This document shows positions 1 to 58,274 of a stretch of 64,000 bases of DNA, one piece after another. The stretch lies in NCBI GenBank assembly GCA_003135635.1, contig PLCJ01000001.1, positions 8,836 to 72,835 of the forward strand, read 5' to 3'. Both the position numbers and the translations under genes were made by a program. Within the stretch, counting starts at the first letter, position 1, and each line of letters begins with the position of its first letter. Below the pieces are notes generated by a model. The model had not been told where the DNA came from, did no database searches, and saw only the letters and a program-made list of their open reading frames with translations. The stretch is from Candidatus Adlerbacteria bacterium. GTDB lineage: Bacteria > Patescibacteriota > Minisyncoccia > Phycocordibacterales > SBAW01.

Positions 1-501
1 CGCGCCTAGGGCACAGGTATTGTACCCGTGGGCAGTTATGGTGGTACGCACAGGATTTCCGTTTTTCGCTACGGTTACTCGTACACAAGAGCTCGATTGA
101 TTCTGACCCATTGATATCTCAAAGGTAGTTGTCGCATCACTCGGGTCGGGCGCCGTTATGGTCCAAGGAAACTGCAGCGGGCTTGAGCCACCAACAATGT
201 CTTGTCCATTGCAATATACCTGACCCGGGGAGGCGGTGCCCCCATAGACATAATCACTTGACGTAGCAAACGCACTTCCATCGGCATCAGTTGGGATTAC
301 CGTGTTGTACTTGAAGTCCCAGTACAAAGCACATTCGGCTCCTGTATCAGCGGCATAAATTGCATACTGCGACTGTGTCTGAGTGATGGAAAGATTGAGT
401 TCGCGCGAAGCAAGATCATAGATAGCAAGCCCTATCGCAAGCGCCAGGGAGGCGATGAGAACTGCAAGAAAAATAGTGAAACCCCGCGTTATAGAGTACA
501 T
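1..501 (-). CDS. Prepilin-type N-terminal domain protein (pilin-like), 3' end truncated by window edge
   Basis: Manual translation of minus strand from ATG at 501..499 gives MYSITRGFTIFLAVLIASLALAIGLAI..., i.e. short leader + G|FT cleavage motif + hydrophobic helix. Not in ORF track because it runs off the window. Lacks Glu at +5. Confidence 0.55.
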   Translation of the reverse strand, partial: MYSITRGFTIFLAVLIASLALAIGLAIYDLASRELNLSITQTQSQYAIYAADTGAECALYWDFKYNTVIPTDADGSAFATSSDYVYGGTASPGQVYCNGQDIVGGSSPLQFPWTITAPDPSDATTTFEISMGQNQSSSCVRVTVAKNGNPVRTTITAHGYNTCALGA

Positions 502-502
502 A

Positions 503-1066
503 TTATTCCCAATTAAATAAATTTTCCTGCACCTGCACGGAGCGAGTAATCCTGGCAGTATCATTCCACGATACTTTAACAGTAACCACAGCCTCAAAAG
601 GATTAGAGCCGCTTGGTATAGGTACCGGTGTGAGTATAGAAACGGTTCTTGTAAAAATAGATGCCGATCCAGCGTTGTAATTAAAATATCCTCCGTTAGT
701 CACTGAATCGTAGTTAAGTATCGGGCAGCCTCCTGTGGGACAGGCTGCTACCGTGGCGTTTAGTGAATCGATAGTGCATTGAGCAGTGCCACCTACGTTA
801 GCATTTATGCAAGAACTCAGTCCCGTAAGCCACGTGGCATTTGATGAATTTCCTGAAAGGTTATTGGAATCGCGGACGGAACGCACATATTCTATGGCAT
901 CTTGAGCAAGGTAATAGGCGGTTATTTGGTCTTTTGCAATAAGAGTGGCATGTAAGTCTCCCTCCGCGATAGCAATCGGACCCGCTAGTGCCATAGTAAG
1001 AATAAGTATCGCAACAAGCGTTTCAACCAGAGTGAATCCTTGGGTGATGTTATATTTATTGATCAT
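503..1066 (-). CDS. Type IV pilin-like / pseudopilin (prepilin N-terminal methylation domain)
   Basis: MINKYNITQGFTLVETLVAILILTMALAG: class III signal peptide, G|FTLVE with Glu+5; start trimmed to internal ATG (cat at 1064-1066) because upstream gene stop lies at 1056. Confidence 0.8.
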   Translation of the reverse strand: MINKYNITQGFTLVETLVAILILTMALAGPIAIAEGDLHATLIAKDQITAYYLAQDAIEYVRSVRDSNNLSGNSSNATWLTGLSSCINANVGGTAQCTIDSLNATVAACPTGGCPILNYDSVTNGGYFNYNAGSASIFTRTVSILTPVPIPSGSNPFEAVVTVKVSWNDTARITRSVQVQENLFNWE

Positions 1067-1655
1067 ATATGCGTTGAGTAACGGAGGCCTGTAAATTAAA
1101 CGATGATGTCTGGGTGCTTGATACTGGGACAGAACCATGTATCAGCATAATGACTCTTGGCTGTATAGTGTCTGGCGCACATCCCCCCGTCCCGGAGGCT
1201 GAGCAAGAACCAATAACATAGAACATAGAACTATTAGCCACATTTACATCAGGCGAGGTGAGGGGCGAGGGTGTGAGGCTTATGGAGGGCACCTGTCGTT
1301 CAATGCAGCCTCCGATATATCCCGCGGGACACTGTCCGGATGGAACAAAACTATACGCAACAACAATGCCACCGCTTGTGGTAAATGAAAGATAATTACT
1401 CCCATTAATGCAGTCTTGCGGTATGGTGGTCACCGTTCCAAAAGTACCACCGCAGTGATAATTGGTGCCGGTTCGAATAGCCCGAGACATACTATCAAGT
1501 GAAAAATTGAGATTATTGATTGCCGATTTCAATACTTCAGCCTTGAGATCACTTTGCGATAGTGTTAAAAGGGCGCCAAGCGCTACTACCATAACGACCA
1601 TAAACAGTGCGACCGCCACCATCATTTCTATAAGAGTAAATCCGCGTTTTTGCAT
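1056..1655 (-). CDS. Type IV pilin-like protein
   Basis: MQKRGFTLIEMMVAVALFMVVMV prepilin leader and cleavage motif; start chosen at internal ATG 1655. Confidence 0.8.
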   Translation of the reverse strand: MQKRGFTLIEMMVAVALFMVVMVVALGALLTLSQSDLKAEVLKSAINNLNFSLDSMSRAIRTGTNYHCGGTFGTVTTIPQDCINGSNYLSFTTSGGIVVAYSFVPSGQCPAGYIGGCIERQVPSISLTPSPLTSPDVNVANSSMFYVIGSCSASGTGGCAPDTIQPRVIMLIHGSVPVSSTQTSSFNLQASVTQRIYDQ

Positions 1656-1659
1656 ATGA

Positions 1660-2292
1660 TTAACTTCCCACAATTCCTACGGCTATTTCCCCCGTGGGAG
1701 AAATGGTCACACTGCGCGTACTGCCCCCTTGAGAGGAAAATTGTATGCTGGCGCTACTATACTCTCCTGGCACACACGCACCAGAATCAAGATTGGTTGC
1801 AAAACATGCATCAGGATTTGGCCGGCTAAAGATAACGGTGAGTGATGTAATAGTCCTGTTGCTACTGCACTGCGAGCCGGCACAAAAATTAGTGATAGTA
1901 TATCCAGGTCCAAGAGTAAAAGTTTGCACTATTTTATCTCCCGAATCATATTGTCCACTGCTATTGGTGTCAGCAAAAAGGAAATAGCTTGTCGGGGTAC
2001 CCGAACTAAAATAGGCCCCGTATGCAGAAGCAAAAACGGTACTCCCCGAAGCACTTTCCCCTTGTACCGATACCCCATACGTCTGCGCTTGGCGAATAGA
2101 GAGCGCCGCACTGTAGGCAAGTGAGCGCAGTAGAATTGAGCTGTCAAACTGTTGTTGGCGCAGCAGAAGAATCGTTGTGATAATAGCCATGATAGCGATT
2201 ACCACTAAGAGCTCAATGAGCGTAAATCCGCGCGTGCGCGGAGAAGTGTGGTTAGCTAAGGAGGCTTGAAAGTGAGAAGAAGAGATCAACAT
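1660..2292 (-). CDS. Type IV pilin-like protein
   Basis: ...SPRTRGFTLIELLVVIAIMAIITT; 22-aa leader; 5' end overlaps 3' end of pilD ORF by ~40 nt (start uncertain, TTG at codon 2 possible). Confidence 0.75.
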   Translation of the reverse strand: MLISSSHFQASLANHTSPRTRGFTLIELLVVIAIMAIITTILLLRQQQFDSSILLRSLAYSAALSIRQAQTYGVSVQGESASGSTVFASAYGAYFSSGTPTSYFLFADTNSSGQYDSGDKIVQTFTLGPGYTITNFCAGSQCSSNRTITSLTVIFSRPNPDACFATNLDSGACVPGEYSSASIQFSSQGGSTRSVTISPTGEIAVGIVGS

Positions 2293-3040
2293 GTAGGAAA
2301 TACACTATGGCCGCTCCAAGAACAAGAAACGGCGCGAAGGGGATTTCGCTTTTCATTGTAAAACGAGAAGCCTTAGTTTTCCATCGACGCGATGCGAACA
2401 ACAGTACGATACCAATACCAGCGCCGCTCCAAAATGCAAGCATGAGCGCAGTAAGTCCCAGAGAAAATCCTAAGAGCCATCCCAAAGAAAGCTCGAGAAT
2501 GCCGTCTCCCCATCCCATCCACTGGCCCTTTGATACAAACGATAACAAAAAAAGTGGCAGGGCAAGCACTACCCCAGCCAGTAAGGTATGGGGAGAAGCG
2601 GGCAGTAGAAAGAGTGCCCGACCAAATCCGAGAATAACAAGCAACAATGAAGGAGCCCGAGGAATAATTGCGTGTCGTAGATCATACACGACAATAAAAA
2701 GAAGGGTCATCCATACAATAAACCAATAACAAAACCAGTACGGATTGAACACAAGCAAATAGATACCCAAGGAAAGCAACGCTGCAGATATTTCAACTAA
2801 CGGATATTGCAGCGAGATAGCGCTACTGCAGTAGCGACACCGACCAGCAAGAGCGAGATAGGAAAAAACAGGGATGAGGTCAAAGAAAGTAAGGACGTGC
2901 CCGCAGCGCATGCAGTGTGAGCGGCCATATATAACTGAGCGTCCAGTGCCGAATCGAAACGACAGAACATTTAGAAAACTACCCGCAATGGCTCCGAGAA
3001 GTACTGCGCCTATTGCAAACACCACTCCCTGCCCATCCAT
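2252..3040 (-). CDS. pilD: Prepilin peptidase (A24 family), PilD
   Basis: MDGQGVVFAIGAVLLGAIAGSFLNV..., CxxC..CxxC zinc motif (CMRCGH...CRYC), polytopic membrane; start at ATG 3040 overlapping stop of upstream pilin by 1 nt (TAATG). Confidence 0.88.
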   Translation of the reverse strand: MDGQGVVFAIGAVLLGAIAGSFLNVLSFRFGTGRSVIYGRSHCMRCGHVLTFFDLIPVFSYLALAGRCRYCSSAISLQYPLVEISAALLSLGIYLLVFNPYWFCYWFIVWMTLLFIVVYDLRHAIIPRAPSLLLVILGFGRALFLLPASPHTLLAGVVLALPLFLLSFVSKGQWMGWGDGILELSLGWLLGFSLGLTALMLAFWSGAGIGIVLLFASRRWKTKASRFTMKSEIPFAPFLVLGAAIVYFLHVDLFFSLSSLLS

Positions 3041-3588
3041 TAGTTTGTAACGTCGTAGCAAGCTTCCGTGCCACCAGGCTGAGGCGTACCGGCAGTTGCG
3101 TCGCAACTTCCGTTGGAACCAGCACTCGTCCCAGAAAAATCACTATTACTGCTCGAACAATTATTAGATCTGTATGCAGCATCACTATCTTGAGTAAGTG
3201 CAGAATTGCTCGTTTGTTCAAGGAGTGCCCCGAGATGGTACGCGATAGGCGGAGGCGGACTACATATGTTGTTTACTGGATTTACCGCATTAAATGCAGC
3301 GTAGGAATATTGTTGACCTGTTTTTGGGTCAAGAGGCATGGTGGGCAGGTACGTTGGAACCAGAGTGCTTAACTGTAGAGGATAGCTAAGATTGTCACTA
3401 TAGTACTGCTCAAGGGAAAGCTGGATGGTGCGAATATCAGCAATGCGTTTAGCATCGCGGCCTTTGGCTTGAGCACTACTCAGAGACACCAAAATGATAG
3501 AGGCTAAAATGCCGATCAGAGCAATGACTACCAACAGCTCAATAAGGGTGAAACCACGAAGACGAAAAATAGATAATTTCATATACAC
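3040..3588 (-). CDS. Type IV pilin (PilA-like)
   Basis: MYMKLSIFRLRGFTLIELLVVIALIGILASIILVSLSSAQAKGRD; N-terminus nearly identical to next pilin. Confidence 0.85.
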   Translation of the reverse strand: MYMKLSIFRLRGFTLIELLVVIALIGILASIILVSLSSAQAKGRDAKRIADIRTIQLSLEQYYSDNLSYPLQLSTLVPTYLPTMPLDPKTGQQYSYAAFNAVNPVNNICSPPPPIAYHLGALLEQTSNSALTQDSDAAYRSNNCSSSNSDFSGTSAGSNGSCDATAGTPQPGGTEACYDVTN

Positions 3589-3654
3589 GTACCTATCCTA
3601 CGATACAATGAGGTCAAATTAAGTGCAGGTAAACCCCTCAGAAAAGTATCCTCC

Positions 3655-4152
3655 TTAGTTACATCCCACCGCAACACTGGCACTACTATTGCTACTAACA
3701 CTTACTATGTACGTGCCTGCTGAGCCTCCAGCAAACTGAGCTGTCCCACTTTCAAGGTACGTGCAAATTTCATAATTCTCTGTTCCGGGAGCACCTGCGC
3801 CGCCTGCTTGAGGAGCCACCATATATTGGCAGGTAGCAGCGGATGTTTTAGTGCAGACGGTCGCTGGAGTAGTTGGATCAAGATAATTTGAGAAGCTAAT
3901 AGGGCTAGGGCCGGTACACGTAGAGGCCATGACGCCGCCACTTACGCACCCGGTAAGGGCTACATTTGTCCCCGTATCAGCCAAGCTTATTGCTTTTCCC
4001 ATTTCCTGCAGAGAGGAAATACGTGCTGCATCGCGTCCTTTTGCCCGAGCGCTGTTAAGAGACACTAAAATGATAGAGGCCAAAATACCAATGATGGCGA
4101 TAACCACCAACAGTTCGATGAGGGTGAAACCACGTTTAAAATGTTTAGACAT
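3655..4152 (-). CDS. Type IV major pilin candidate (PilA-like)
   Basis: MSKHFKRGFTLIELLVVIAIIGILASIILVSLNSARAKGRD; 165 aa, Cys pairs in C-terminal region. Confidence 0.85.
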   Translation of the reverse strand: MSKHFKRGFTLIELLVVIAIIGILASIILVSLNSARAKGRDAARISSLQEMGKAISLADTGTNVALTGCVSGGVMASTCTGPSPISFSNYLDPTTPATVCTKTSAATCQYMVAPQAGGAGAPGTENYEICTYLESGTAQFAGGSAGTYIVSVSSNSSASVAVGCN

Positions 4153-4267
4153 ATATATAATTCATCAATAATTTACACACTTCCTTCACTGCCTCAAGTA
4201 TACCTCGCCCTTAGTATGTCACTTTTTATTGCTGTGGATAATATGTACCTTCCCTTGTAAGCTCTTT

Positions 4268-5482
4268 TTAGAGTTGGCTCGTCGTGTTATAAATCGGCAA
4301 CAATATTGATGCGAGAAGAAATCCAACCCCTATCGCCAAAACGACAATCATTGCTGGCTCAATAAGAGCAACCAGGGTGTCTACCGCTGCGCTTACCTCG
4401 CGATTATAAAATTTAGCAAGCCGATCAAGGATATTGGCAGTTTCCCCCGTCTCATTGCCTATCTGGAGCATTTGCACCATGATCGTAGGAATTTCCTTGG
4501 GATATCGAGACAATATGTCATGAAGGGGCGCGCCTCCCTTCACCCCCTCCACGGCAGCTTGGAGAATATCTTCGTACACAGCATTTTGTATGATTGAGGC
4601 AGTTATCTCAAGGGCGCGGAGAGTAGAGATACCACTACTTAGCATCACGTGCAAATTGTCGGCGATACGGGAAAGATATAACTTTTGGTATAGCGATCCA
4701 ATATAGGGCAAGGTGATCTGCAACCGAGAAATAGACCAGCGTCCTTGGGGTGTTTGAGCGTAACGGAAGAGAAAATAACCTGCGATAATAAGTGCAATAA
4801 GGAGAAATATTCCATAATCGACGAAAAATCCGCTGAGGTTAAGAACAATCTGAGTATATATAGGAAGTGTTCCACCTTCACTGGTCAAAATAGTGGCAAT
4901 TTTAGGAATAATGACCGTAATCATGAGTAGCATTACAGCAATAAACGTCACGATAATGAATGCTGGGTAAATGAGGGCATTGCGCACCTTACTGGTTATC
5001 TCGTAGGAACGATCAATATGATCTGCAAGAAATATAAATGTTTGGCTAAGCTTTCCCGTCTCTTCTCCGGCTCGCACCATATTGACGTAGAAATCTGAAA
5101 AAACCTTCGGGTGTTTGCCGAGCGCCTGAGAAATACTGCTTCCCGCCTGAAGATCATCGCTCACGCTCACGAGCGTTTGCCGCAGATAGGATGTGTCGGC
5201 CTGCTGGCTGAGGAGTTGGAATATGCGCAGTGGAGAAACCTGGGCCTCAAAGAGCGTTGCCAGTTGGCGCGAGAGAATAACGATACTGCGGCCACTTACC
5301 CCTCCAAAAATAGTAATATTGTGCAGTGAGGAGAATACATCTTTTTTTTGATTTGTTGAAAAAACAGTGAGGGTAAGCCCACGACGCTGCAGTATAGTAA
5401 TAGCCGCTTCCTCCGTTGCGGCGTTTACGGTTCCAGCTTGGGGCTTGCCTTCTTGATCTAGTGCTTCGTATTTATACTCCAT
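4268..5482 (-). CDS. pilC: Type IV pilus platform protein PilC (GspF family)
   Basis: 404 aa, two GspF repeats, 3 TM segments, position between pilin and pilT. Confidence 0.9.
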   Translation of the reverse strand: MEYKYEALDQEGKPQAGTVNAATEEAAITILQRRGLTLTVFSTNQKKDVFSSLHNITIFGGVSGRSIVILSRQLATLFEAQVSPLRIFQLLSQQADTSYLRQTLVSVSDDLQAGSSISQALGKHPKVFSDFYVNMVRAGEETGKLSQTFIFLADHIDRSYEITSKVRNALIYPAFIIVTFIAVMLLMITVIIPKIATILTSEGGTLPIYTQIVLNLSGFFVDYGIFLLIALIIAGYFLFRYAQTPQGRWSISRLQITLPYIGSLYQKLYLSRIADNLHVMLSSGISTLRALEITASIIQNAVYEDILQAAVEGVKGGAPLHDILSRYPKEIPTIMVQMLQIGNETGETANILDRLAKFYNREVSAAVDTLVALIEPAMIVVLAIGVGFLLASILLPIYNTTSQL

Positions 5483-5486
5483 AGCT

Positions 5487-6551
5487 CTACATCATTAACC
5501 GCTCCAGTGTTTTGGGGTTCCAAGAACGTGCGTAGGCGCTCTCTGGAGTAATTTCTCCGGCACGCACGAGATCCGCCAAGCAGCGATTCATATCAATCAT
5601 GCCTTCCTGGGAACTCGTTTCGATGATAGCGTCGATTTCGTGGATACGTTTTTCTCGAATAAGATTTGCAACTGCACTGGTGTTGATAAGAAGTTCATAG
5701 GCAGGAATAAGTCCACCAGAGATGCGCGGTATAAGCCGCTGAGAAAAGATGCCGCTGAGTGTTTCTGCAAGCTGGGCCCGGACTTGTTCCTGCTGACCCG
5801 AAGGAAATGTATCAAGGATACGATCGATAGTTTGGGAAGCGTTGTTGGTATGGAGCGTCGAAAAAACGAGGTGGCCCGTCTCTGCGGCAGTGACCGCAAT
5901 GGCCATTGTCTCTGATGTCCGCATCTCACCTATCATAAGAACGTCAACATCTTGACGAAATACGGATCCCAGTGCTGTTTCAAAGTCAGCGGTATCAATA
6001 CGCACTTCGCGTTGATCAACAATAGAGCGCTTATTTTCAAATAGATATTCGATTGGATCTTCAATGGTAATAATATGCTCGGTGCGTTCGATGTTGATTT
6101 TTTCAAGAAGCGCCGCAAGGGTGGTCGTCTTTCCTTGTCCCACTGGCCCAACTACTAAAAAAAAGCCCTGCTCACGGGTTGCAAACTGCTCAAGCTCTGA
6201 AGGAAGGTTTAATTCTTTTACTGAGCGAATGGTGCGGGGAACTAGCCGGAGTGCAACACCGATATGACCGCGCTCAACAAATGCATTTCCACGGAAACGC
6301 GCAGTATTGCCGTAGGAGAAAGAAAAATCGGCTTCCTGAGTCTGCAAAAACTTCTGTATACGCTCTGGAGAGAGCATGCGCTCAAGTAGACCCCGCACAT
6401 CTTCGTCGCTGAGTTTCGCTTCAGAGAGAAGTGGTGTCAAGATGCTAGAAACACGAATGACTGGATGCGCACCAGCCGACAAATGAAGATCTGATGCACC
6501 TTGTGCGATTACTTGATTGACAAAAGAAGTGAGCAATTGTTCGTAGTTCAT
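5487..6551 (-). CDS. pilT: Twitching motility retraction ATPase PilT
   Basis: Walker A GPVGQGKTTTLAAL, Asp box DVLMIGEMR, His box GHLVFSTLHTNNA; 354 aa. Confidence 0.92.
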   Translation of the reverse strand: MNYEQLLTSFVNQVIAQGASDLHLSAGAHPVIRVSSILTPLLSEAKLSDEDVRGLLERMLSPERIQKFLQTQEADFSFSYGNTARFRGNAFVERGHIGVALRLVPRTIRSVKELNLPSELEQFATREQGFFLVVGPVGQGKTTTLAALLEKINIERTEHIITIEDPIEYLFENKRSIVDQREVRIDTADFETALGSVFRQDVDVLMIGEMRTSETMAIAVTAAETGHLVFSTLHTNNASQTIDRILDTFPSGQQEQVRAQLAETLSGIFSQRLIPRISGGLIPAYELLINTSAVANLIREKRIHEIDAIIETSSQEGMIDMNRCLADLVRAGEITPESAYARSWNPKTLERLMM

Positions 6552-8401
6552 AATTGAATTTCTGTTTGGGGCTCTTCCGATTTCGTCTCTTCTTCTTCTG
6601 TTAGTTCTTTGGGCACAGAAGGAGGAATATCCGCACCAATATCAGAAAGTTCAAATTGGCCCCCAAGGCTATTGACCTCCTCAAACGGAATGACGCCCTT
6701 TACCGCTTTAATGATAGCATCCTCTTTCATCGTGAGCATGCCATCTTTACGTACAATGGAGAACATTTCTTCTTCAGATTTCCTTGCGAGGATGGCGCGT
6801 TCCAATTCCGGCACCATTTCAAAGGCTTCGGATACCGCAATGCGTCCTTTGGTTCCTGTTGGATACTCAAGCGTGGGCTTGATACGATATATTTCCTTAA
6901 GGGCGGGAATCTGATCACGAAATTCCTCTGGCACATCGGCAAATTCATCCTTAATCAGAGCCTCCATGCTGCCTTCAATCGGCATTTTCTGTCCACCTCC
7001 TTGCGGAAGCGTCCGTACGAGACGTTGTGCCATACCCAAAATGAGCACCGGGGGAATAAGATATGGCTCAATTTTCATATCAAGGAGACGCGGCACTATA
7101 CCGATAGCATTGTTGGTGTGTATTGTAGAAAGCACTAAATGGCCAGTGAGTGCAGCCTGCACAGCCAAGTCAGCTGTTTCGGCATCACGAATCTCACCCA
7201 CCATTATGATATTTGGGTCTTGGCGCAAGGTTGTACGCAGTCCGTTGGCAAAGGTATAGCCAATTTCAGGATGAACTTGTGATTGTGAAACCCCAGCAAT
7301 GGTGTATTCAACTGGATCTTCAAGCGAGAGCACATTTTGTCCTTCGCGGTCGATTTCATTGAGAACCGCATACAACGTCGTAGATTTTCCCGATCCAGTA
7401 GGACCAGAGATAAGAACGAGGCCGTAAGGCTTTTTTATAGCAGTACGAATAAGTTTAAGACTGCGGTCTGAAAAACCAAGATTCTCCAGTTTGACTTCTT
7501 GGGCAGACGCGCCAAGAATGCGCATCACCACCTTTTCGCCATAGTAGGTTGGAAAAGTAGAAACACGGAAATCCACCTTATTGCCACCCACCCGTGCAGA
7601 AAAACGGCCGTCCTGAGGCTTCCGTTTTTCATCAAGACGCATATTACAGAGTACTTTGATTCGAGCCACTACCGCTGGATGCACCTTGAGTGGCAACGTA
7701 ATGTTTGTTGAAAGGAACCCATCCACACGAAAGCGTACTCGTGTTTTATCGGCGAGTGGTTCGATATGAATGTCAGATGCTCGCTTCTCAGATGCATGAC
7801 GTAAGATGGTCGCTACAATCTTCGTAATGGGTGCATCAGTGGTGGTAGCATCGCTTGCTGTTTCAGTAATGGTTTCTTCTTGTATCGAAACAGTACGTTT
7901 ATTTTCCTTATCTGTTTTTTTAGTTTCATCAGTGATCTCAACTTCAAGTTCACTGAGAGCCTTCCCCACCTCTCCTGAAAGACCCTTATACTGGCCCATG
8001 ACACGATCAAAATCAGTTTCTGTAATAAGAAACACTTTGTATGGCATTCCTAATTTCGAAGAAATAAAGCTGAGAGCGTCTCGTGCTTCTAAATTGTCTG
8101 GATCAGTAATACCTACCTCAAGCACATTATCTTTGACCGTCAGAGGTACTAGCCCGTAATGTCGAGCAGATTCTTCAGGAATAAGCTGCAAAATATCAAA
8201 GGGTACTTGCTCTTCTCCCACTAAGCGCGTGGGGACAGCATAATATTGTCCTTTGGTCTTTAGGATGTCTTCAAGTGATATCCCCGCCTGGATCAAGAGG
8301 GCTTCTGGGGAGGCACCGGGAGATTTGAGATTCCGTTCTATTTCGGAAACTTTTTTTCGATCAAGTGTACCGTTTTGCAGGAATGTTTGCAGAAGGTCCA
8401 T
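6548..8401 (-). CDS. pilB: Type IV pilus assembly ATPase PilB (GspE family)
   Basis: T2SSE_N domain, Walker A ISGPTGSGKSTTLYAV, DPNIIMVGEIRD, TGHLVLSTIHTNNA; no Cys in the region where the tetracysteine motif usually lies; overlaps pilT start by 4 nt. Confidence 0.92.
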   Translation of the reverse strand: MDLLQTFLQNGTLDRKKVSEIERNLKSPGASPEALLIQAGISLEDILKTKGQYYAVPTRLVGEEQVPFDILQLIPEESARHYGLVPLTVKDNVLEVGITDPDNLEARDALSFISSKLGMPYKVFLITETDFDRVMGQYKGLSGEVGKALSELEVEITDETKKTDKENKRTVSIQEETITETASDATTTDAPITKIVATILRHASEKRASDIHIEPLADKTRVRFRVDGFLSTNITLPLKVHPAVVARIKVLCNMRLDEKRKPQDGRFSARVGGNKVDFRVSTFPTYYGEKVVMRILGASAQEVKLENLGFSDRSLKLIRTAIKKPYGLVLISGPTGSGKSTTLYAVLNEIDREGQNVLSLEDPVEYTIAGVSQSQVHPEIGYTFANGLRTTLRQDPNIIMVGEIRDAETADLAVQAALTGHLVLSTIHTNNAIGIVPRLLDMKIEPYLIPPVLILGMAQRLVRTLPQGGGQKMPIEGSMEALIKDEFADVPEEFRDQIPALKEIYRIKPTLEYPTGTKGRIAVSEAFEMVPELERAILARKSEEEMFSIVRKDGMLTMKEDAIIKAVKGVIPFEEVNSLGGQFELSDIGADIPPSVPKELTEEEETKSEEPQTEIQL

Positions 8402-8407
8402 GACATA

Positions 8408-8767
8408 TTAACGTCCCAAGGTTGGCACGGGTAATTTCGTTGTCTGAGATTGGGGCACACTATTTCCAAATGATGCAAAGGGGTTGTGACGACCAACATT
8501 TTCAGGCGGTATAACAACACCAAAATTTGTAAGAGATACAAACACAGGATCAGTAAATATTGAGCTATCAAGCGTTATCGTGCTAAGGCTTGTCAGCGAG
8601 GTAAGTAGTTTCTGGGAAGCGGGCGAGGAAGAGGAATCTCCTGTCGAAATCAAAAGCGTGCTGCTTGAAGAAGAGTTATTCATGCCAAGGGTATAGTAGA
8701 GAAGGCCGCCGATTACCCCCACAGTGACAATGGTCAAGAGTACATTTTGTTTAATAAAGGTCATCAT
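8408..8767 (-). CDS. Small bitopic membrane protein in pilus operon (PilP/PilO-like accessory?)
   Basis: N-terminal TM (LLTIVTVGVIGGLLYYTL), Ser-rich periplasmic part; only positional evidence. Confidence 0.5.
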   Translation of the reverse strand: MMTFIKQNVLLTIVTVGVIGGLLYYTLGMNNSSSSSTLLISTGDSSSSPASQKLLTSLTSLSTITLDSSIFTDPVFVSLTNFGVVIPPENVGRHNPFASFGNSVPQSQTTKLPVPTLGR

Positions 8768-8770
8768 ACG

Positions 8771-9322
8771 TTAATAGAGCCAATAGGTGCGAAAGGTGAT
8801 GGTATACGTTGTGGTGTTTCCGGTTCCATTTTGAAATGAAAGCTGTGTAATATCGACTATGCGCTCACTATGCTCAAGGTCCTGCAGAAACGCCATGAAC
8901 GTATCGTAATTTGTCGTTACTGAAAACCCAAGTTCTGCAGAACCAACTGGATTGCCAGAAGAGCCCACCGCAGCAATGCCGCCCGTGGTGCTGCTGTTTG
9001 ATGCCGTAGCTAATTTAAGGTTGCTGAGCGATAGGTTATACCGGGATGCAATATTGTTAACATCAATGATAAGACGGATGTTATCTACATTGTCAGGAAG
9101 TATCTGCTGCAATTTATCTACATCACTTTGAGAGAAGGCGTTGCTTTTGGTCAATAGTTGCTGACGCAAACCTTGCAACTGTTGCACTTTACTGAGTGCG
9201 TCATCATACTGCACCCCTTGTGATTGCACTCCTTTGATTTGTTGGTAGGTCGGATTGATATACAAGACAAACAGTCCGATGGCAGCAGCAATTAATATGA
9301 GAGGGATGAATATACGAGTCAT
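8771..9322 (-). CDS. pilO: PilO-like pilus assembly protein
   Basis: N-terminal TM + coiled-coil (QQLQGLRQQLLTK) typical of PilO; operon position. Confidence 0.6.
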   Translation of the reverse strand: MTRIFIPLILIAAAIGLFVLYINPTYQQIKGVQSQGVQYDDALSKVQQLQGLRQQLLTKSNAFSQSDVDKLQQILPDNVDNIRLIIDVNNIASRYNLSLSNLKLATASNSSTTGGIAAVGSSGNPVGSAELGFSVTTNYDTFMAFLQDLEHSERIVDITQLSFQNGTGNTTTYTITFRTYWLY

Positions 9323-9324
9323 AG

Positions 9325-9987
9325 TTATTGAAGAGGAGTAGTTGTGGCGGGAAGGATAGGAATAGAAGAGGAAGCAATGGGTTGTACATTTTGGTTAGAA
9401 GTTGCACCAGTGATAAGCTTGTTGCTGTAAAGAAGGAGAGCCTGGCTAACGTTTGTACTCAGGGTAAAAACCACCTGTCCGGATGTGTTGGTATTAATAT
9501 TAGAGAAAATGATATTTTTGAGCATATTGCTGCTGCCGAACTGGTCGCTTTGAAGCGCAAGAGTCGAAAAGGAATCCGCAATGCCCTGCAAGGTGACAAG
9601 TGCGGAACCATTAGGTTGTAGTTGATAATTAAAACTTGTAAATTGGACGTTTAATAGTGTCTGCTGCGAGAGAAAATCAAAAAGAGCAGAGGGAGCCACA
9701 TGCCCGGCAAGCAAAATCTTTGCCTGCAGTATCCGGTTATCCATGCGAACAAGATCATTAATGGAAGAAAGATCAATTGCGCTTTGGTCTTTTTGCAGTA
9801 CAGCGCTTTTATTTGCAATAGATTGGTTCAGATACTGCTCATACCCAAATACCAGCCCAGCTGCAACTAGTGATACTATGAAAATTAACAGCGCAATTAA
9901 AAACAAAAGCCCCGCTCCTTCTCCATGAGAAGGACCCGGAGTAAAAGATTTTTTCGGTATAAAGGACGCGGGAGCTTGAGGATCCAT
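9325..9987 (-). CDS. pilN: PilN-like pilus assembly protein
   Basis: Short cytoplasmic N-term, single TM (LLFLIALLIFIVSLVAAGLVF), follows pilM. Confidence 0.6.
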   Translation of the reverse strand: MDPQAPASFIPKKSFTPGPSHGEGAGLLFLIALLIFIVSLVAAGLVFGYEQYLNQSIANKSAVLQKDQSAIDLSSINDLVRMDNRILQAKILLAGHVAPSALFDFLSQQTLLNVQFTSFNYQLQPNGSALVTLQGIADSFSTLALQSDQFGSSNMLKNIIFSNINTNTSGQVVFTLSTNVSQALLLYSNKLITGATSNQNVQPIASSSIPILPATTTPLQ

Positions 9988-10037
9988 CAGTATTAGTATA
10001 CCGTTAAAAATTCCACAACTGCGGATCTATCAACAGA

Positions 10038-11117
10038 TTAGGCGATTTCCTGCAAACGCCGCAGCGCAAGGCCTACCGCAACAGAAAACTCTGGTCCTGC
10101 TTCTTTAAGAACACCTTCCAGAAATGCTGGCGCCTGTGTTTTTCCAAAAGGATCGGCAAGTCGAATTTCGTTTTGTAACTTACTCTGTGCAAAATCTTTA
10201 AGCCCCTTGAGGGTGGCGCTTCCTCCGGTGACCACCATGGTGCTGAGCGATTGGTTCATGCGCTGCTCGTAGGCAGCAATGGTGCGTGATACCTCCGACA
10301 GCAAGGGTGTTACGGAAAGAGCGAGCGTCTGAGTAAGATCGGGGCCCCCCTCCGGCATAAGGCCAAATTTTCTCTTGCGCTCTTCCGCTTGAGAGACACT
10401 AATATTAAGTGCACGGGAAGCGGCAAGTGTTAAATCTTGGCCTCCGTGATTAATAATATGGCTTTCGCGAATGAGTCCTCGTTCAACCACATAAAACTTT
10501 GTTGTCGCCGCGCCCATGTCAACCACTGCAACCGGCGCAATACCGCGATCAAGGGATGCTCGCACCGCACTAAATACTTCTATTTCAAAAAATGCTAGGG
10601 TAAGTCCGGCATCGCTGACAATACTTTTGAATTTAGCGATGGTATCGTTGTGTATGGCGACTAAAAGTACTTCAAGCTTACTTCCTGGCGTTGCTTCTTT
10701 GCCTCCGCCGGAGAGTACAAACCAATCAAGTAGTACTTCATTTATGGGAACTGGAATATACTTGCGTGCTTCAAGGGGTACCACTTGTGCAAGCTGCTTT
10801 TCGACAGACGCGGGCAATTTCAATATCGAAATAAGGCTCAAGGCATAAGGAATGGAGATTGCTACATCAGTAGTGGTGACACGCGCTTCACGAATCACAT
10901 CTTTAAGCGCTTCAGCGATCTTTTCAGTAGGCAAAGAGGTTGCACGACCAATTTCAAGACCGGCGTATGGCCCAAGGGCGATAGCACCATATGTTTCAAG
11001 TATCACCCGTCCATGTTCACGCCTGAGTTGTACCACCTTGATTGAAGAAGTGCCGACATCGACCCCAATGACACTCTTTTGTTCTTTGGAGAATAATGAT
11101 GAAAAAGAAAAGGCCAT
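10038..11117 (-). CDS. pilM: Type IV pilus assembly protein PilM (actin-like ATPase)
   Basis: SVIGVDVGTSSIKVVQL..., FtsA/actin fold motifs; start trimmed to ATG 11117 (MAFSFSSLFSKEQK) removing 44-aa ORF extension. Confidence 0.88.
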   Translation of the reverse strand: MAFSFSSLFSKEQKSVIGVDVGTSSIKVVQLRREHGRVILETYGAIALGPYAGLEIGRATSLPTEKIAEALKDVIREARVTTTDVAISIPYALSLISILKLPASVEKQLAQVVPLEARKYIPVPINEVLLDWFVLSGGGKEATPGSKLEVLLVAIHNDTIAKFKSIVSDAGLTLAFFEIEVFSAVRASLDRGIAPVAVVDMGAATTKFYVVERGLIRESHIINHGGQDLTLAASRALNISVSQAEERKRKFGLMPEGGPDLTQTLALSVTPLLSEVSRTIAAYEQRMNQSLSTMVVTGGSATLKGLKDFAQSKLQNEIRLADPFGKTQAPAFLEGVLKEAGPEFSVAVGLALRRLQEIA

Positions 11118-11233
11118 CAGGGAGTAGTATACCACTGTGTAGAAAGAGATTTGTGGCTCTAGGGCCTTCTGGTGTATACGTTTTCCGTCAGACTGAGTAT
11201 CTGGTACATTTATGAAGCAAAGGAAAGAATTAC

Positions 11234-11785: not shown

Positions 11786-11790
11786 AAAAC

Positions 11791-21409: not shown

Positions 21410-21512
21410 ACACAACTCAGAAGAGCCAGACCAGCCTTGCTCCTTGGTCTGGCTCTTCTTGCTTACCGGCAGGCAAGGCAAACAATTTTGTTAACTCTCT
21501 TCAAGACTTGGA

Positions 21513-23099: not shown

Positions 23100-23116
23100 A
23101 TATCTTATTTGTTAAT

Positions 23117-28044: not shown

Positions 28045-28073
28045 CCGGAGGTTTAGCAGTATACTAATGTCGT

Positions 28074-30915: not shown

Positions 30916-30944
30916 CAAATAAAGTTGGAATCACTTGTTTGTGC

Positions 30945-56543: not shown

Positions 56544-58274
56544 TTACTGGGCCGCTATCCGCAAGACTTCTTCTATTGTTGTATATCCTTGTGTCGCTTT
56601 ATAGATACCATCTTCAGCAAGAGTAAGCATGCCTTCATCGTAGGCAATCTGCTGGAGATCCTGTAGATCAGTATGCTGGGTGATCATTTCCTTCATGTTG
56701 CGCGATATTGGCCATACCTCCTGCACGCCGATGCGTCCCCGGTATCCCCCGTCGCACTTCTCACAGGGCACCTGGCGGTGAAAACTAATTTCCTTCCACG
56801 GCGTATGCGGGGCCACAGCTCCACCTTCTCTCAGTGCCGCCAAAATACGGGAGGGATCTGCTACCTCTTCAATCGATTGCAACTCCGATCGTAGTGCCTG
56901 ATATGTCTCTCGTTTAGTGCAAAGTCTGCGTACGTGGGAAACCCCGATGGCTGTATGTAGAACAGATGCAATGGATAGAGGAGGCGCTACCTCTTGGAGT
57001 TTTGTGATACCTTCTGCGGTAGAAGATGCTCCAATACCTGCAAGTACCAATATGCCGCGGTTCGCTGCAGCAAGTGCGACCGTGGCCACAGCCGCATCGT
57101 CAATAGTACCCACCATGAGCACGTCGGGATCTTGTTTTGCTGCGGCACGAAGCGCTGCGACCAACGAAACGCCCATCTCAGGCTGCGCTTGTGTTTGGAC
57201 AATATGACGAAGCGGATACTTAACACGCTCTTCTACCGTGATTATGTTTTTATCAGAGGTAGCAAGAATATCAAGAAGTGTATAGAGGAGCGTTGCTTTT
57301 CCCGCCCCCAGTGCGCCACATACCATAATAAGTCCAGAGCGTTGGGCAAGAGCGTGGTGGACATTTTCAAGTGACTGTCCATGCAACCCGAGTGCCTCAA
57401 GCGTAAAGCCGGCGCGATGGGAATAGTCAGGGATAAGATGAAGCACCATCCGCTCGCCATGAGCGCTCGGGATACTTGCAAGTGTTACCAAGGCTCGGCC
57501 TGCTTCTCCTTCTAACCGAAAGCGCCCCTCTTGTGGTGACACTTCGGAAAGTGGTACCTGTGCGAGGAATTTTAAACGCAGAAGCATGCTAGTTGCTGTA
57601 GAGGGTGGCAACACCATGCTGTCGCATAATTTTCCAGCAATCCTATAGCGCACTAACAAACCGTGCTCCGTGGGATCCAAATGAATATCTGTCGCGCGAC
57701 TGCTAAGCGCATGTCGCATGAGCAGGTCAACAAGATGTGATACCGGCTGGAGCTGCGCTGCTTGAAGCACATCTTGAGGAGTGTCTGAAAAAGGGACGGA
57801 CACGTCATGAGCCACCTGCGCCATAGCATTCCCGACCGTTTGTTTGAGATATTTTTGATATTTCAGAAGAGCCATCTTCATACTTTCCGCGTCGGTCAAA
57901 CGAGGCAGGACGCGCCAGCGATCTTCTAAAAACGAAATCGCGGGTCGATCCTCAAGATCAAGAAATGCTACTTCCAGCGTATGGCCATGCGCGGCAAATG
58001 CCACCGTATGATGAGCCCGAGCAAGAGGTTCAGGAATAAGGGTGAAAACCTCAGGAGTAATATCCTCAGCGGTGAGTTTTACAAATGGTACGCCAGTCAT
58101 ATTGGCTACTGCCCGATTGAGCTCATCTGAGGAAAGAATGCCAGCGCCCACAAGTGCTTGCTCGAGAGTTTCCCGCATTTCCTCTGCGCGCTCTTGTGCA
58201 GCCGCTGCATCGGCGCGAGAGAGCATACCGCTTCCGAGTAAAAAATCAAGCAGCTGTGCTTCATCAATCTCCAT
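56544..58274 (-). CDS. PilB/GspE-family ATPase paralog with degenerate catalytic motifs (predicted pseudo-ATPase)
   Basis: T2SSE_N-like N-terminus; Walker A GALGAGKATLL (Ala after Lys), Asp box VGTIDD (catalytic Glu lost), His box replaced by NRGILVLAGIGASS; retains C..CxxC; start trimmed to MEIDEAQLL (coordinate +/-1). Confidence 0.75.
   Translation of the reverse strand: MEIDEAQLLDFLLGSGMLSRADAAAAQERAEEMRETLEQALVGAGILSSDELNRAVANMTGVPFVKLTAEDITPEVFTLIPEPLARAHHTVAFAAHGHTLEVAFLDLEDRPAISFLEDRWRVLPRLTDAESMKMALLKYQKYLKQTVGNAMAQVAHDVSVPFSDTPQDVLQAAQLQPVSHLVDLLMRHALSSRATDIHLDPTEHGLLVRYRIAGKLCDSMVLPPSTATSMLLRLKFLAQVPLSEVSPQEGRFRLEGEAGRALVTLASIPSAHGERMVLHLIPDYSHRAGFTLEALGLHGQSLENVHHALAQRSGLIMVCGALGAGKATLLYTLLDILATSDKNIITVEERVKYPLRHIVQTQAQPEMGVSLVAALRAAAKQDPDVLMVGTIDDAAVATVALAAANRGILVLAGIGASSTAEGITKLQEVAPPLSIASVLHTAIGVSHVRRLCTKRETYQALRSELQSIEEVADPSRILAALREGGAVAPHTPWKEISFHRQVPCEKCDGGYRGRIGVQEVWPISRNMKEMITQHTDLQDLQQIAYDEGMLTLAEDGIYKATQGYTTIEEVLRIAAQ

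What the first reader, a model, noticed from the sequence alone, without database searches (positions are those of the whole stretch)
1..11117. Complete type IV pilus locus with six tandem prepilin genes and pilD embedded in the pilin array
Six consecutive minus-strand ORFs carry class III signal peptides (G|FT[LI][IV]E); one is truncated by the window edge. The prepilin peptidase gene sits between pilins 4 and 5 and overlaps both neighbours. The two distal pilins (3040-3588, 3655-4152) share an almost identical first 35 residues, suggesting a recent duplication or alternative major pilins. Downstream lie pilC, pilT, pilB, three bitopic PilN/O-like proteins and pilM. A full assembly + retraction machinery fits the episymbiont-like lifestyle implied by the rest of the window.
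Basis: partly seen in the sequence, partly recalled or inferred. Interest (0 to 1): 0.55.

Follow-up and report, generated by a model that had tools for sequence, protein, structure and literature searches.

The report
Type IV pilus operon, Adlerbacteria
This is a complete, tightly packed 14-gene operon for a retractable type IV pilus in an uncultured ultra-small (CPR/Patescibacteria, Adlerbacteria) bacterium; the same gene order recurs in dozens of related genomes, so it is a typical example of a known system, not a new one.

Summary
Window 1-11117 (minus strand) encodes pilM-pilN-pilO-X119-pilB-pilT-pilC-pilA1-pilA2-pilD-mp1-mp2-mp3-mp4. All machinery genes pass Pfam thresholds. PilD keeps both catalytic Asp and four Cys in 69 orthologues.

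- Only five of six pilin-like ORFs have G|FTxxE. The sixth (mp4, 1-501) reads G|FTIFL, with no Glu5, and hits no HMM. It still models confidently as a pilin.
- The source contig shows mp4 is 179 aa and is followed by ligA. No further pilins follow.
- pilA1/pilA2 are not a recent duplication. They share 31/35 N-terminal residues, but synonymous sites are about 48% identical, globular domains are unrelated, and each has positional orthologues in other species.
- The third bitopic protein is not PilN/O-like. It belongs to a large unannotated family with a conserved C-terminal GRxNPF motif.
- pilC/T/B/M lie upstream, not downstream.

The order, with one to four pilins before pilD and four after it, holds in nearly all of about 55 loci complete enough to judge. 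Best reading: a secretin-less type IVa pilus with two major-type pilins and a four-subunit tip-priming set capped by mp4.

Type IV pili are already documented in these bacteria and characterised in Saccharibacteria. Verdict: new member of a known kind, low to moderate interest.

The parts
10038..11117 (-). pilM, actin-like cytoplasmic alignment protein (359 aa from ATG 11117; the longest ORF runs to 11249)
   Evidence: Pfam PilM_2 7.7e-41 and FtsA. Conservation across 56 orthologues begins at Met45 of the long ORF.
9325..9987 (-). pilN, bitopic alignment protein with a conserved N-terminal SFIPK motif (candidate PilM-binding peptide)
   Evidence: Pfam PilN 5.9e-05, above the gathering score. 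SFIPK is at least 95% conserved in 65 orthologues.
8771..9322 (-). pilO, bitopic alignment protein
   Evidence: Pfam PilO 1.1e-07, above the gathering score. Present in every complete related locus.
8408..8767 (-). X119, a conserved small bitopic protein of unknown family: TM helix, low-complexity linker, short helix, and a C-terminal G-R-x-N-P-F motif. Candidate extra alignment subunit.
   Evidence: No Pfam, NCBIfam or PDB sequence hit. Always lies between pilO and pilB in related loci. GRxNPF is nearly invariant. 2796 cluster representatives at E<=1e-3. The AF2 model has no globular domain, pTM 0.26.
6548..8401 (-). pilB, extension ATPase (617 aa, MshEN N-domain plus T2SSE). Overlaps pilT by 4 nt.
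   Evidence: Pfam T2SSE 2.9e-110 and MshEN 7.5e-13. NCBIfam PilB 2.2e-141, below the equivalog cut-off. Walker A, Asp box, Walker B and His box are intact.
5487..6551 (-). pilT, retraction ATPase (354 aa)
   Evidence: NCBIfam TIGR01420 PilT/PilU, 409.7 bits against a cut-off of 319.1. Pfam T2SSE. The translation shows GPVGQGKTT, GEMRT, TGHLVFSTLHTNNA and AVANLIRE.
4268..5482 (-). pilC, inner-membrane platform protein
   Evidence: Pfam T2SSF 2.7e-56, two domains. 49-73% identical to 80 Paceibacteria homologues.
3655..4152 (-). pilA1, major-type pilin: leader MSKHFKRG, mature 157 aa, 6 Cys, and the highest Gly/Ala/Ser/Thr content of the six. Preceded by a 115-nt intergenic gap.
   Evidence: N_methyl 7.8e-10. 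Alpha1 matches solved major pilins. GAST 0.48. Orthologous globular domains always sit first after pilC.
3040..3582 (-). pilA2, second major-type (GspG-like) pilin: leader MKLSIFRLRG, mature 170 aa, 4 Cys. Its stop overlaps the pilD ATG (TAATG).
   Evidence: N_methyl 1.9e-07. Best NCBIfam hit is GspG at 3.8e-13, sub-threshold. PDB hits include GspG and major pilins. Orthologues always sit last before pilD in 25 or more genomes.
2252..3040 (-). pilD, bifunctional prepilin peptidase / N-methyltransferase (262 aa)
   Evidence: Pfam A24_N_bact 9.1e-29 and Peptidase_A24 1.8e-08. Asp in VVYD-LRH, Asp in GWGD-G, and the four Cys of CxxC...CxxC are invariant in 68-69 of 69 orthologues.
1660..2292 (-). 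mp1, minor pilin with a 22-aa leader and weak GspH/FimU-like signal. Its start lies 41 nt inside pilD.
   Evidence: N_methyl 4.5e-09. Best NCBIfam hit is GspH at 7.6e-08, sub-threshold. hhalign to E. coli GspH gives 95.7% over 71 columns. Glu5 is present in 57 orthologues. The overlap was read directly.
1056..1655 (-). mp2, minor pilin (leader MQKRG)
   Evidence: N_methyl 1.3e-08. Weak ComGE and GspJ hits. Glu5 is present in 58 orthologues.
503..1066 (-). mp3, minor pilin (leader MINKYNITQG) with weak PilV/GspI-like signal
   Evidence: N_methyl 2.4e-05. PilV 7.1e-08 and GspI 7.7e-05, both sub-threshold. Glu5 is present in 59 orthologues.
1..501 (-). mp4, non-canonical pilin without Glu5 (MYSITRG|FTIFLAV). 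167 of 179 codons lie in the window. Candidate tip cap, a functional analogue of GspK/PilX/ComGG.
56544..58271 (-). pilB2, an orphan, catalytically degenerate PilB paralogue elsewhere in the window. It is not part of the operon but may relate to it.
   Evidence: Pfam T2SSE 3.3e-71 and MshEN. 27% identical to PilB. Walker A is GAGKAT, the Walker B Glu is Thr, and both His-box His are lost; 83 of 120 homologues lack the intact Glu/His/His signature. The pilB2-tpiA-pgk arrangement with nusA close upstream (two extra genes intervene) also appears in L086; in L087 only nusA upstream is retained.

Best explanation
This is the single-membrane (secretin-less) type IVa pilus operon of an uncultured Candidatus Adlerbacteria (Paceibacteria, CPR/Patescibacteria) genome. 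It is transcribed from pilM (11117) towards coordinate 1.

Shown by sequence and HMM evidence:
- PilM, PilN and PilO form the alignment scaffold genes. PilC is the platform. PilB is the extension ATPase and PilT the retraction ATPase.
- PilD is a prepilin peptidase with an intact Asp pair and a Zn-type Cys4 methyltransferase domain.
- Five canonical prepilins are present, plus one Glu5-less pilin-fold protein.

Inferred mechanism:
- PilD cleaves each prepilin after Gly-1 and methylates Phe+1.
- The four genes after pilD (mp1-mp4) form the membrane-embedded priming complex that ends up at the pilus tip. mp4 sits on top as the cap, because a tip subunit needs no Glu5 salt bridge to a neighbour above it.
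- PilB-driven rotation of PilC then adds PilA1 and/or PilA2 beneath this complex. PilT removes subunits to retract the fibre.
- X119 is an additional lineage-specific membrane component of the alignment complex.
- Tight spacing and overlaps (pilB/pilT 4 nt, pilA2/pilD 1 nt, pilD/mp1 41 nt, mp2/mp3 11 nt) suggest translational coupling. This would keep PilD and the minor pilins at low, fixed ratios.
- The 115-nt gap before pilA1 may hold an internal promoter for high pilin expression. No promoter was demonstrated.

Likely biological role, by analogy with Saccharibacteria T4P-1: attachment to and movement on a host cell, and possibly DNA uptake.
For: - Domain content.
- PilD catalytic residues invariant in 69 orthologues.
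- Taxon.
- Gene order pilM-N-O-X119-B-T-C-[1-4 pilins]-pilD-mp1-mp2-mp3-mp4 recurs in nearly all of about 55 related loci complete enough to judge. The number of pilins between pilC and pilD is 1 (16 loci), 2 (30), 3 (19) or 4 (4).
- Glu5 is present in mp1-3 orthologues and never in mp4.
- The mp4 model is a confident pilin lollipop and its nearest solved structures are pilins.
- E. coli GspK (G|VALLI) and YgdB (G|VSSLA) likewise lack Glu5, while GspG/H/I/J and PpdA/B/C have it: read from sequences.
- The concept of four core minor pilins with a GspK cap: PMC7248040.
- No Secretin family appears among the called genes of the window. This matches the CPR-wide absence of PilQ reported in PMC6744442.
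- TM7x locus one has the same parts list, is essential, and is linked to twitching: PMC11623550.
- All six pilins have even Cys counts, against 0-1 Cys in the machinery proteins.
Against: - There are no expression, proteomic or imaging data for this organism, so which pilin is the major subunit is not known.
- One-to-one orthology of mp1-mp3 with GspH/I/J or FimU/PilV/PilW is not established. NCBIfam hits are sub-threshold and hhalign mostly aligns only the N-terminal helix.
- Promoter and terminator scans give nothing above background in the intergenic gaps.
- The role of X119 is purely positional inference.
Confidence: 0.88

Rival explanations
1. The locus is a type II secretion system, whose pseudopilus pushes folded proteins out, and not a surface pilus.
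For: The best sub-threshold NCBIfam hits of the pilin-like proteins are to GspG, GspH, GspI and GspJ. PilB scores almost equally against GspE and PilB models. The arrangement of four minor subunits with a Glu5-less last one mirrors gspH-I-J-K.
Against: - A PilT-family retraction ATPase passes its curated cut-off.
- PilM_2, PilN and PilO are present, with no GspL, GspM or GspC hits.
- No secretin is found in the window, and PilQ is reported missing across CPR (PMC6744442).
- Homologous loci in Saccharibacteria make real pili (PMC11623550).
Confidence: 0.03
2. The locus is a dedicated competence (Com-type) pseudopilus used only for DNA uptake.
For: There are weak hits to ComGC/D/E/F models. Four minor pilins with a Glu5-less last one resemble ComGD-E-F-G. 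CPR bacteria depend on external nucleotides, and competence genes are widespread in them (PMC6744442).
Against: By my own knowledge of the Com family, Com systems lack PilT and PilM/N/O, and their ATPase ComGA lacks the MshEN N-domain. Here all of these are present. No comEA, comEC or comFC gene was found among the called genes of the operon or its flanks. A type IVa pilus can still contribute to DNA uptake, so the function is not excluded. Only family membership is.
Confidence: 0.04
3. The two pilins next to pilC arose by a recent tandem duplication or gene conversion. It would make the array a currently diversifying antigenic or adhesive repertoire.
For: - 31/35 identical mature N-terminal residues, and a 117-nt direct repeat at 79% identity.
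- Copy number between pilC and pilD varies from 1 to 4 among relatives.
- Some other genomes (L007, L028, L034, L065, L079) do show pairs with 82-97% third-position identity.
Against: - In this window, third-codon identity at conserved codons is 0.48. That equals the median for all paralogue pairs and is close to the between-species values of 0.45 and 0.34.
- The globular domains are about 16% identical.
- Each copy has its own positional orthologues in 10 to 25 or more other species.
Confidence: 0.04

Closest known systems
T4P-1 (locus one: PilC1, PilB1, PilT, PilM1/N1/O1, PilD plus five pilins) of the Saccharibacterium Nanosynbacter lyticus TM7x (PMC11623550)
   Same: - Same superphylum.
- Same parts list in one locus, including PilT and PilD.
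- Several pilins have only T2SS-pseudopilin-level similarity.
- One or more pilins lack a canonical PilD signal (PilX1/PilX2 there, mp4 here).
- No secretin.
   Different: - Different class (Paceibacteria/Adlerbacteria against Saccharimonadia).
- This locus has six pilin-like genes and an extra conserved small protein, X119.
- mp4 is small (179 aa) with no accessory lectin, jelly-roll or propeller domain, unlike PilX1/PilX2.
- Nothing here has been tested experimentally.
Monoderm type IVa pili of Firmicutes (Streptococcus sanguinis pil locus; Clostridium perfringens/difficile T4P)
   Same: - PilB, PilT, PilC, PilM, PilN, PilO and PilD are present without a secretin.
- More than one major-type pilin gene sits in tandem (PilE1/PilE2 in S. 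sanguinis; my own knowledge).
- The nearest solved structure to mp4 is the S. sanguinis minor pilin PilA.
   Different: - Gene order differs.
- Sequence identity of the pilins is confined to the N-terminal helix.
- X119 and the mp4 family have no detectable counterparts there.
Core minor (pseudo)pilin sets: GspH-I-J-K (T2SS), FimU-PilV-PilW-PilX / PilH-I-J-K (T4aP), ComGD-E-F-G (PMC7248040)
   Same: - A block of four consecutive pilin-like genes.
- The last gene lacks Glu5, like E. coli GspK and YgdB.
- There are weak GspH-like (mp1) and PilV/GspI-like (mp3) signals.
   Different: - No member reaches a curated family cut-off.
- mp4 lacks the large GspK insertion domain and has no profile similarity to GspK or YgdB.
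- The gene block follows pilD and not the major pilin or pseudopilin gene.
PilP, the inner-membrane lipoprotein that bridges PilN/PilO to the secretin in diderm T4aP
   Same: X119 sits directly after pilO, as pilP does in pilMNOPQ operons (my own knowledge). It is membrane-anchored, with a largely unstructured segment that could dock on PilN/PilO.
   Different: No PilP Pfam or PDB sequence signal. No beta-sandwich domain in the model. It has a TM anchor and not a lipobox. There is no secretin to bind.

Membership tests
Type IVa pilus machinery (monoderm / secretin-less form) | Extension ATPase of the PilB/GspE family with intact Walker A, Asp box, Walker B and His box | tested here: met
   T2SSE 2.9e-110 plus MshEN. 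Motifs SGPTGSGKSTT, LSLEDPVEY, MVGEIRD and TGHLVLSTIHTNNA are present. The NCBIfam PilB equivalog score of 472 is below the 675 cut-off, so this is a divergent member.
Type IVa pilus machinery (monoderm / secretin-less form) | Dedicated PilT-family retraction ATPase | tested here: met
   TIGR01420 scores 409.7 bits against a cut-off of 319.1.
Type IVa pilus machinery (monoderm / secretin-less form) | PilC platform with two T2SSF domains | tested here: met
   PF00482 2.7e-56, two stretches.
Type IVa pilus machinery (monoderm / secretin-less form) | PilM-PilN-PilO alignment proteins | tested here: met
   PilM_2 7.7e-41, PilN 5.9e-05 and PilO 1.1e-07, all above gathering scores. The conserved PilN N-terminal SFIPK peptide is present. 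Its binding to PilM was not tested.
Type IVa pilus machinery (monoderm / secretin-less form) | Major pilin with a short leader, Gly-1, Phe+1, Glu+5 and a hydrophobic alpha1 helix | tested here: met
   PilA1 has leader MSKHFKRG|FTLIE and PilA2 has MKLSIFRLRG|FTLIE. N_methyl is above cut-off for both. Alpha1 matches solved major pilins. Which one is the major subunit is not testable here.
Type IVa pilus machinery (monoderm / secretin-less form) | Assembled, retractile surface filament | not testable with these tools
   Requires microscopy or proteomics on an enrichment culture.
Type IVa pilus machinery (diderm form) | PilQ secretin (and PilP) | tested here: not met
   No Secretin family appears among the called genes covering about 98% of the window. 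The rest of the 263-kb contig was not examined. PilQ is reported missing across CPR (PMC6744442).
Prepilin peptidase, MEROPS A24A (PilD/GspO) | Two catalytic Asp in conserved motifs (the second in GxGD) | tested here: met
   D in VVYDLRH and D in GWGDG. They are invariant in 69 and 68 of 69 orthologues respectively. PF01478 is above cut-off.
Prepilin peptidase, MEROPS A24A (PilD/GspO) | N-terminal methyltransferase domain with four Cys | tested here: met
   PF06750 9.1e-29. The four Cys of CMRC...CRYC are invariant in 69 of 69 orthologues. Enzyme activity was not tested.
Type IV pilin / pseudopilin (N_methyl, PF07963 / TIGR02532) | Class III signal with Gly-1, hydrophobic +1 and Glu+5 | tested here: met
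   Met for PilA1, PilA2, mp1, mp2 and mp3.
Type IV pilin / pseudopilin (N_methyl, PF07963 / TIGR02532) | The same feature, applied to mp4 (window 1-501) | tested here: not met
   No N_methyl or TIGR02532 hit. Position +5 is Leu here and F/L/M/V in orthologues. Gly-1 and Phe+1 are invariant and the fold is pilin-like. It therefore works like a GspK-type pilin but is not a member of the HMM-defined family.
Core minor pilin set (GspH/I/J/K equivalents) | Four co-encoded minor pilins, one of them without Glu5 | tested here: met
   mp1-mp4 are conserved in order in nearly all complete related loci. The Glu5 pattern is shown. E. coli GspK and YgdB provide the comparison.
Core minor pilin set (GspH/I/J/K equivalents) | One-to-one homology of each member to GspH, GspI, GspJ and GspK | tested here: inconclusive
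Type II secretion system | GspD secretin and GspC/L/M, with no PilT | tested here: not met
   No Secretin, GspL, GspM or GspC hits, and PilT is present.
Com (competence) pseudopilus | ComGA/ComGB with ComGC-G, and no PilT or PilMNO | tested here: not met
   PilT and PilM/N/O are present. The ATPase carries the MshEN domain. The ComGA model scores below cut-off.
PilN/PilO family (for X119, the 'third bitopic protein') | PilN or PilO domain with a ferredoxin-like periplasmic fold | tested here: not met
   None of the 86 family members scanned hit PilN or PilO. The model shows a TM helix plus short helices only, pTM 0.26.

The most novel reading that the evidence does not exclude
Two conserved but unannotated components make the Paceibacteria pilus machine mechanistically distinct.
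- X119 (TM anchor plus GRxNPF motif, at least 2796 cluster representatives) would be a new fourth subunit of the PilMNO alignment complex. It would take the place of PilP in a cell without a secretin.
- The mp4 family (584 or more members, no Glu5, no accessory domain) would be a new minimal tip-cap pilin.
- The syntenically conserved, catalytically degenerate PilB paralogue (pilB2, 56544-58271) may be a third such component, acting as a non-hydrolysing regulator of the same machine.
Probability: 0.3. Interest if true: 0.45.

Novelty: new member of a known kind. Interest (0 to 1): 0.25.

Why it matters
Type IV pili are thought to be the main organ by which CPR/Patescibacteria find, hold and perhaps feed on their hosts. 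They have been dissected experimentally only in Saccharibacteria.

This locus adds nothing categorically new, but the comparative result is useful. Across Adler-, Kaiser-, Nomura-, Taylor- and Vogelbacteria-type genomes the operon has a fixed grammar:
- machinery genes first;
- then one to four variable major-type pilins;
- then pilD;
- then four invariant minor pilins, ending in a Glu5-less cap.

The grammar gives annotation rules for thousands of MAGs. In these, mp4, X119 and sometimes mp2 are called 'hypothetical' or are mis-started. It also points to the variable pilC-proximal pilins as the likely host-specificity determinants.

Tried and rejected
- Promoter and terminator consensus scans over 1-11800 found 20 promoter-like sites against 19.4 expected, and nothing in the pilC-pilA1 or pilA1-pilA2 gaps.
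- RNA folding of both gaps gave z-scores of +0.9 and +1.4, so there is no attenuator hairpin.
- Profile searches of mp4 and X119 against PDB sequences returned only noise.
- hhalign of mp1-mp4 profiles against E. coli GspG-K and PpdA/PpdB/YgdB/PpdC did not resolve one-to-one orthology.
- A word-indexed homologue search for X119 found only 5 proteins. The full HMM scan found 2796.
- The hypothesis that the divergent ECF sigma / DUF5667 pair (11255-13053) is a conserved regulator of the operon was rejected. It lies next to pilM only in this genome, out of 50 loci.
- Recent duplication or gene conversion of pilA1/pilA2 was rejected.
- No tandem repeats occur in the locus.
- One context look-up failed because my ORF start did not match the recorded gene call.

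Full report
**1. What is in the sequence**

Window 1-11117 holds fourteen co-directional minus-strand genes with almost no spacing. In the direction of transcription they are:

| Gene | Window coordinates |
|---|---|
| pilM | 11117-10038 |
| pilN | 9987-9325 |
| pilO | 9322-8771 |
| X119 (119 aa) | 8767-8408 |
| pilB | 8401-6548 |
| pilT | 6551-5487 |
| pilC | 5482-4268 |
| pilA1 | 4152-3655 |
| pilA2 | 3582-3040 |
| pilD | 3040-2252 |
| mp1 | 2292-1660 |
| mp2 | 1655-1056 |
| mp3 | 1066-503 |
| mp4 | 501-1, cut by the window edge |

- Pfam places PilM_2, PilN, PilO, T2SSE+MshEN, T2SSE, T2SSF (two domains), and A24_N_bact+Peptidase_A24 above their gathering scores.
- N_methyl is above its gathering score for five of the six pilin-like ORFs.
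- PilT also passes the curated NCBIfam PilT/PilU cut-off, at 409.7 against 319.1 bits.
- A pattern search over all six frames of the 64-kb window finds the class III signal plus hydrophobic stretch only six times. All six are in this array.
- A DNA repeat search independently groups the five canonical N-terminal coding segments as one family.

**2. Corrections of detail**

- The sixth ORF reads MYSITRG|FTIFLAV. It has Gly-1 and Phe+1 but no Glu at +5, and it hits no Pfam or NCBIfam model. 'Six ORFs with G|FT[LI][IV]E' should be five plus one non-canonical.
The pilA2 stop and pilD start share one base (TAATG). The only possible mp1 starts (ATG 2292 or TTG 2289) lie 41 or 38 nt inside pilD.
- In 57 orthologous loci the Gly-1 codon of mp1 begins 1-140 nt after the pilD stop, and within 45 nt in most. 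A close or overlapping junction is therefore the rule.
Conservation across 56 orthologues begins there.
- The gene call in the public record starts mp2 at MMVAV..., which cuts off its signal peptide. ATG 1655 (MQKRG|FTLIE) is correct.
- pilC, pilT, pilB and pilM lie upstream of the pilins, not downstream.

**3. Beyond the window edge**

An exact-protein look-up found the source contig: ENA ERZ19973380, 263,578 bp. On it, mp4 is 179 aa, so only 12 codons are missing from the window. The next genes are ligA, gatC and gatA. No further pilins follow. ligA directly follows mp4 in 45 of 56 related loci.

**4. Organism and conservation**

- PilC relatives in one-genome-per-species GTDB data are all Patescibacteria. 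The best are Candidatus Adlerbacteria, at no more than 73% identity.
- I called ORFs in the 80 fetched loci and classified them with the window proteins as queries.
- The order pilM-N-O-X119-B-T-C-[pilins]-pilD-mp1-mp2-mp3-mp4 recurs in nearly all of about 55 loci long enough to judge. These span MAGs labelled Adler-, Kaiser-, Nomura-, Taylor- and Vogelbacteria.
- The number of pilin genes between pilC and pilD is 1 (16 loci), 2 (30), 3 (19) or 4 (4). The four genes after pilD are essentially invariant in number and order.
- 'pilD embedded in the pilin array' is therefore a lineage-wide architecture. It separates a variable major-pilin segment from a fixed minor-pilin segment. It is not a peculiarity of this genome.

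**5. PilD**

Both catalytic Asp (VVYD-LRH and GWGD-G) and the four Cys of the N-terminal CxxC...CxxC domain are invariant in 68-69 of 69 orthologues.

**6. The two pilC-proximal pilins**

- Their mature N-termini are 31/35 identical. Only 16 of the 35 third-codon positions agree, and the remaining about 120-135 residues are about 16% identical.
- At conserved codons the third-position identity is 0.48. This equals the median of 111 within-genome paralogue pairs in the related loci. It is close to the values for window-versus-other-species comparisons, 0.45 and 0.34.
- The globular domain of PilA1 finds 13 relatives, mostly the first pilin after pilC. That of PilA2 finds 38; the top 25 inspected are all pilD-proximal (last, or in L012 the last two). 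Neither domain finds the other.
- These are old paralogues whose alpha1 helices are held similar by selection. They are not a recent duplication.
- Truly recent duplications or conversions do exist in other genomes (L007, L028, L034, L065, L079), with third-position identity of 0.82-0.97. The segment is dynamic in the lineage, just not here.
- Both proteins match the alpha1 region of solved major pilins and GspG.
- PilA1 is the smaller protein and the richer in Gly/Ala/Ser/Thr (0.48 against 0.37). It is preceded by the only sizeable intergenic gap, 115 nt. It is my tentative candidate for the major subunit. This is inference only.

**7. The four genes after pilD**

- mp1-mp3 carry Glu5 in 57, 58 and 59 orthologues. 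mp4 has F, L, M or V and never Glu.
- The best, sub-threshold NCBIfam hits are GspH for mp1, ComGE/GspJ for mp2 and PilV/GspI for mp3. mp4 has none.
- Profile searches against PDB sequences and hhalign against E. coli GspG-K and PpdA/PpdB/YgdB/PpdC align little more than alpha1. One-to-one orthology stays open.
- The E. coli sequences fetched for that test show directly that GspK (G|VALLI) and YgdB (G|VSSLA) lack Glu5, while the others have it.
- mp4 has 584 homologues, all unannotated. Gly-1 and Phe+1 are invariant and four Cys positions are conserved (two invariant, two in at least 90% of sequences).
- An AlphaFold2 model built on 55 sequences is confident (pLDDT 90.9). It shows a 63-residue N-terminal helix packed on a five-stranded sheet, the pilin 'lollipop'.
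- Foldseek finds nothing significant.
- The four core minor pilins are held to form a tip-priming complex capped by GspK (PMC7248040). That a tip subunit needs no Glu5 is my own knowledge (Korotkov & Hol 2008).
- On that basis the most economical reading is that mp1-mp4 are this lineage's priming and tip complex, with mp4 as a minimal cap.
- In TM7x, PilX1 and PilX2 likewise lack a predicted PilD signal (PMC11623550).

**8. X119**

- The 119-aa protein is bitopic but not PilN/O-like. There is no family hit for it or for 85 relatives, and no PDB sequence hit.
- The AlphaFold2 model (86 sequences) shows a TM helix, a disordered linker and short helices, with pTM 0.26.
- It is always found between pilO and pilB.
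- It has a nearly invariant C-terminal G-R-x-N-P-F motif.
- Its family has 2796 cluster representatives in a full HMM scan.
- Its position after pilO and its anchored, unstructured character suggest a PilP-like docking role in a machine without a secretin. This is speculation.

**9. Other features of the locus**

- PilN carries an N-terminal SFIPK motif that is at least 95% conserved. It is plausibly the counterpart of the PilM-binding peptide of other PilN proteins (my own knowledge).
- All six pilins have even Cys counts (6, 4, 4, 6, 4, 4). The machinery proteins have 0-1. This fits disulfide-bonded ectodomains and the CPR-enriched oxidoreductases noted in PMC6744442.
- No consensus promoter or terminator stands out.
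- The divergent ECF sigma / DUF5667 pair next to pilM is unique to this genome among 50 loci. It is not part of the system.

**10. Comparison with what is known**

- Méheust et al. (PMC6744442) reported that PilB, PilT, PilC, PilM, PilN, PilO, PilD and pilins are widespread and co-localised in CPR genomes, and that PilQ was not found.
- The TM7x study (PMC11623550) showed that a locus with the same parts list makes an essential pilus linked to twitching.
- Several Paceibacteria papers mention T4P genes.
- By parts list this locus meets the definition of a secretin-less type IVa pilus. It fails the tests for T2SS and Com systems (see the membership table).
- It is therefore a new member of a known kind.
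- The modest added value is the conserved operon grammar and two large unannotated families (mp4, X119) tied to it.

**11. Seen in passing**

- A second PilB-like gene sits at 56544-58271. It is 27% identical to PilB.
- Its Walker A reads GAGKAT, its Walker B Glu is Thr, and both His-box histidines are lost.
- 83 of its 120 closest database relatives lack the intact Walker-B Glu / His / His signature.
- The pilB2-tpiA-pgk arrangement, with nusA close upstream (two extra genes intervene), is also seen in another Adlerbacteria-type contig (L086). In L087 only nusA upstream is retained.
- This conserved orphan pseudo-ATPase is the most unusual item near the finding and may deserve its own look.

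**12. Verdict**

- Novelty: new member of a known kind.
- Interest: 0.25.

Noticed in passing
window 56544-58271 (-): An orphan second PilB/GspE-type ATPase (MshEN + T2SSE), 27% identical to the operon's PilB. Its catalytic motifs are degenerate: Walker A is GAGKAT, the Walker B Glu is Thr, and both His-box His are lost. 83 of its 120 closest homologues lack the intact Walker-B Glu / His-box signature. The pilB2-tpiA-pgk arrangement with nusA close upstream (two extra genes intervene) recurs in another contig (L086); in L087 only nusA upstream is retained. It is possibly a regulatory pseudo-ATPase.
   Followed up: partly
window ~41797-45490 (-): Four consecutive genes with no Pfam hit (353, 115, 434 and 303 aa in the public gene calls) sit between fusA (45545-47689) and tuf (39738-40937). 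They interrupt the usual rpsL-rpsG-fusA-tuf arrangement.
   Followed up: no
window 20795-24295 (-): Two adjacent Ice_binding (PF11999) domain proteins (392 and 528 aa) are followed by a sortase gene. This looks like a likely cell-surface protein cassette.
   Followed up: no
window 11255-13053 (+): An ECF-type sigma factor and a DUF5667 protein are divergent from pilM. The pairing with the pil operon is found only in this genome among 50 related loci, so it is probably not a dedicated pilus regulator.
   Followed up: yes
window 27973-28046 (+); 30539-30918 (+): tRNA-Ile with anticodon TAT (UAU). tmRNA (Rfam RF00023, 90.9 bits), with smpB encoded next to it.
   Followed up: no
window 1056-1655 (-) and L001:12528-13097: The public gene call for mp2 starts at an internal Met (MMVAV...), which removes the class III signal peptide. 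That gene call has no precomputed Pfam family on record, although the full-length protein hits N_methyl, so such minor pilins can go unrecognised in MAG annotations.
   Followed up: yes
related loci L007, L028, L034, L065, L079 (pilin genes between pilC and pilD): Unlike the window, these genomes carry pairs of major-type pilin genes whose N-terminal 35 codons are 82-97% identical at third positions. This indicates recent duplication or gene conversion in the variable segment of the operon.
   Followed up: partly
window 1-4152, all six pilin-like genes: Every pilin-like protein has an even number of Cys (6, 4, 4, 6, 4, 4), while PilB/C/N/O and X119 have 0-1. This suggests obligatory disulfide bonding of the pilin ectodomains.
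   Followed up: partly
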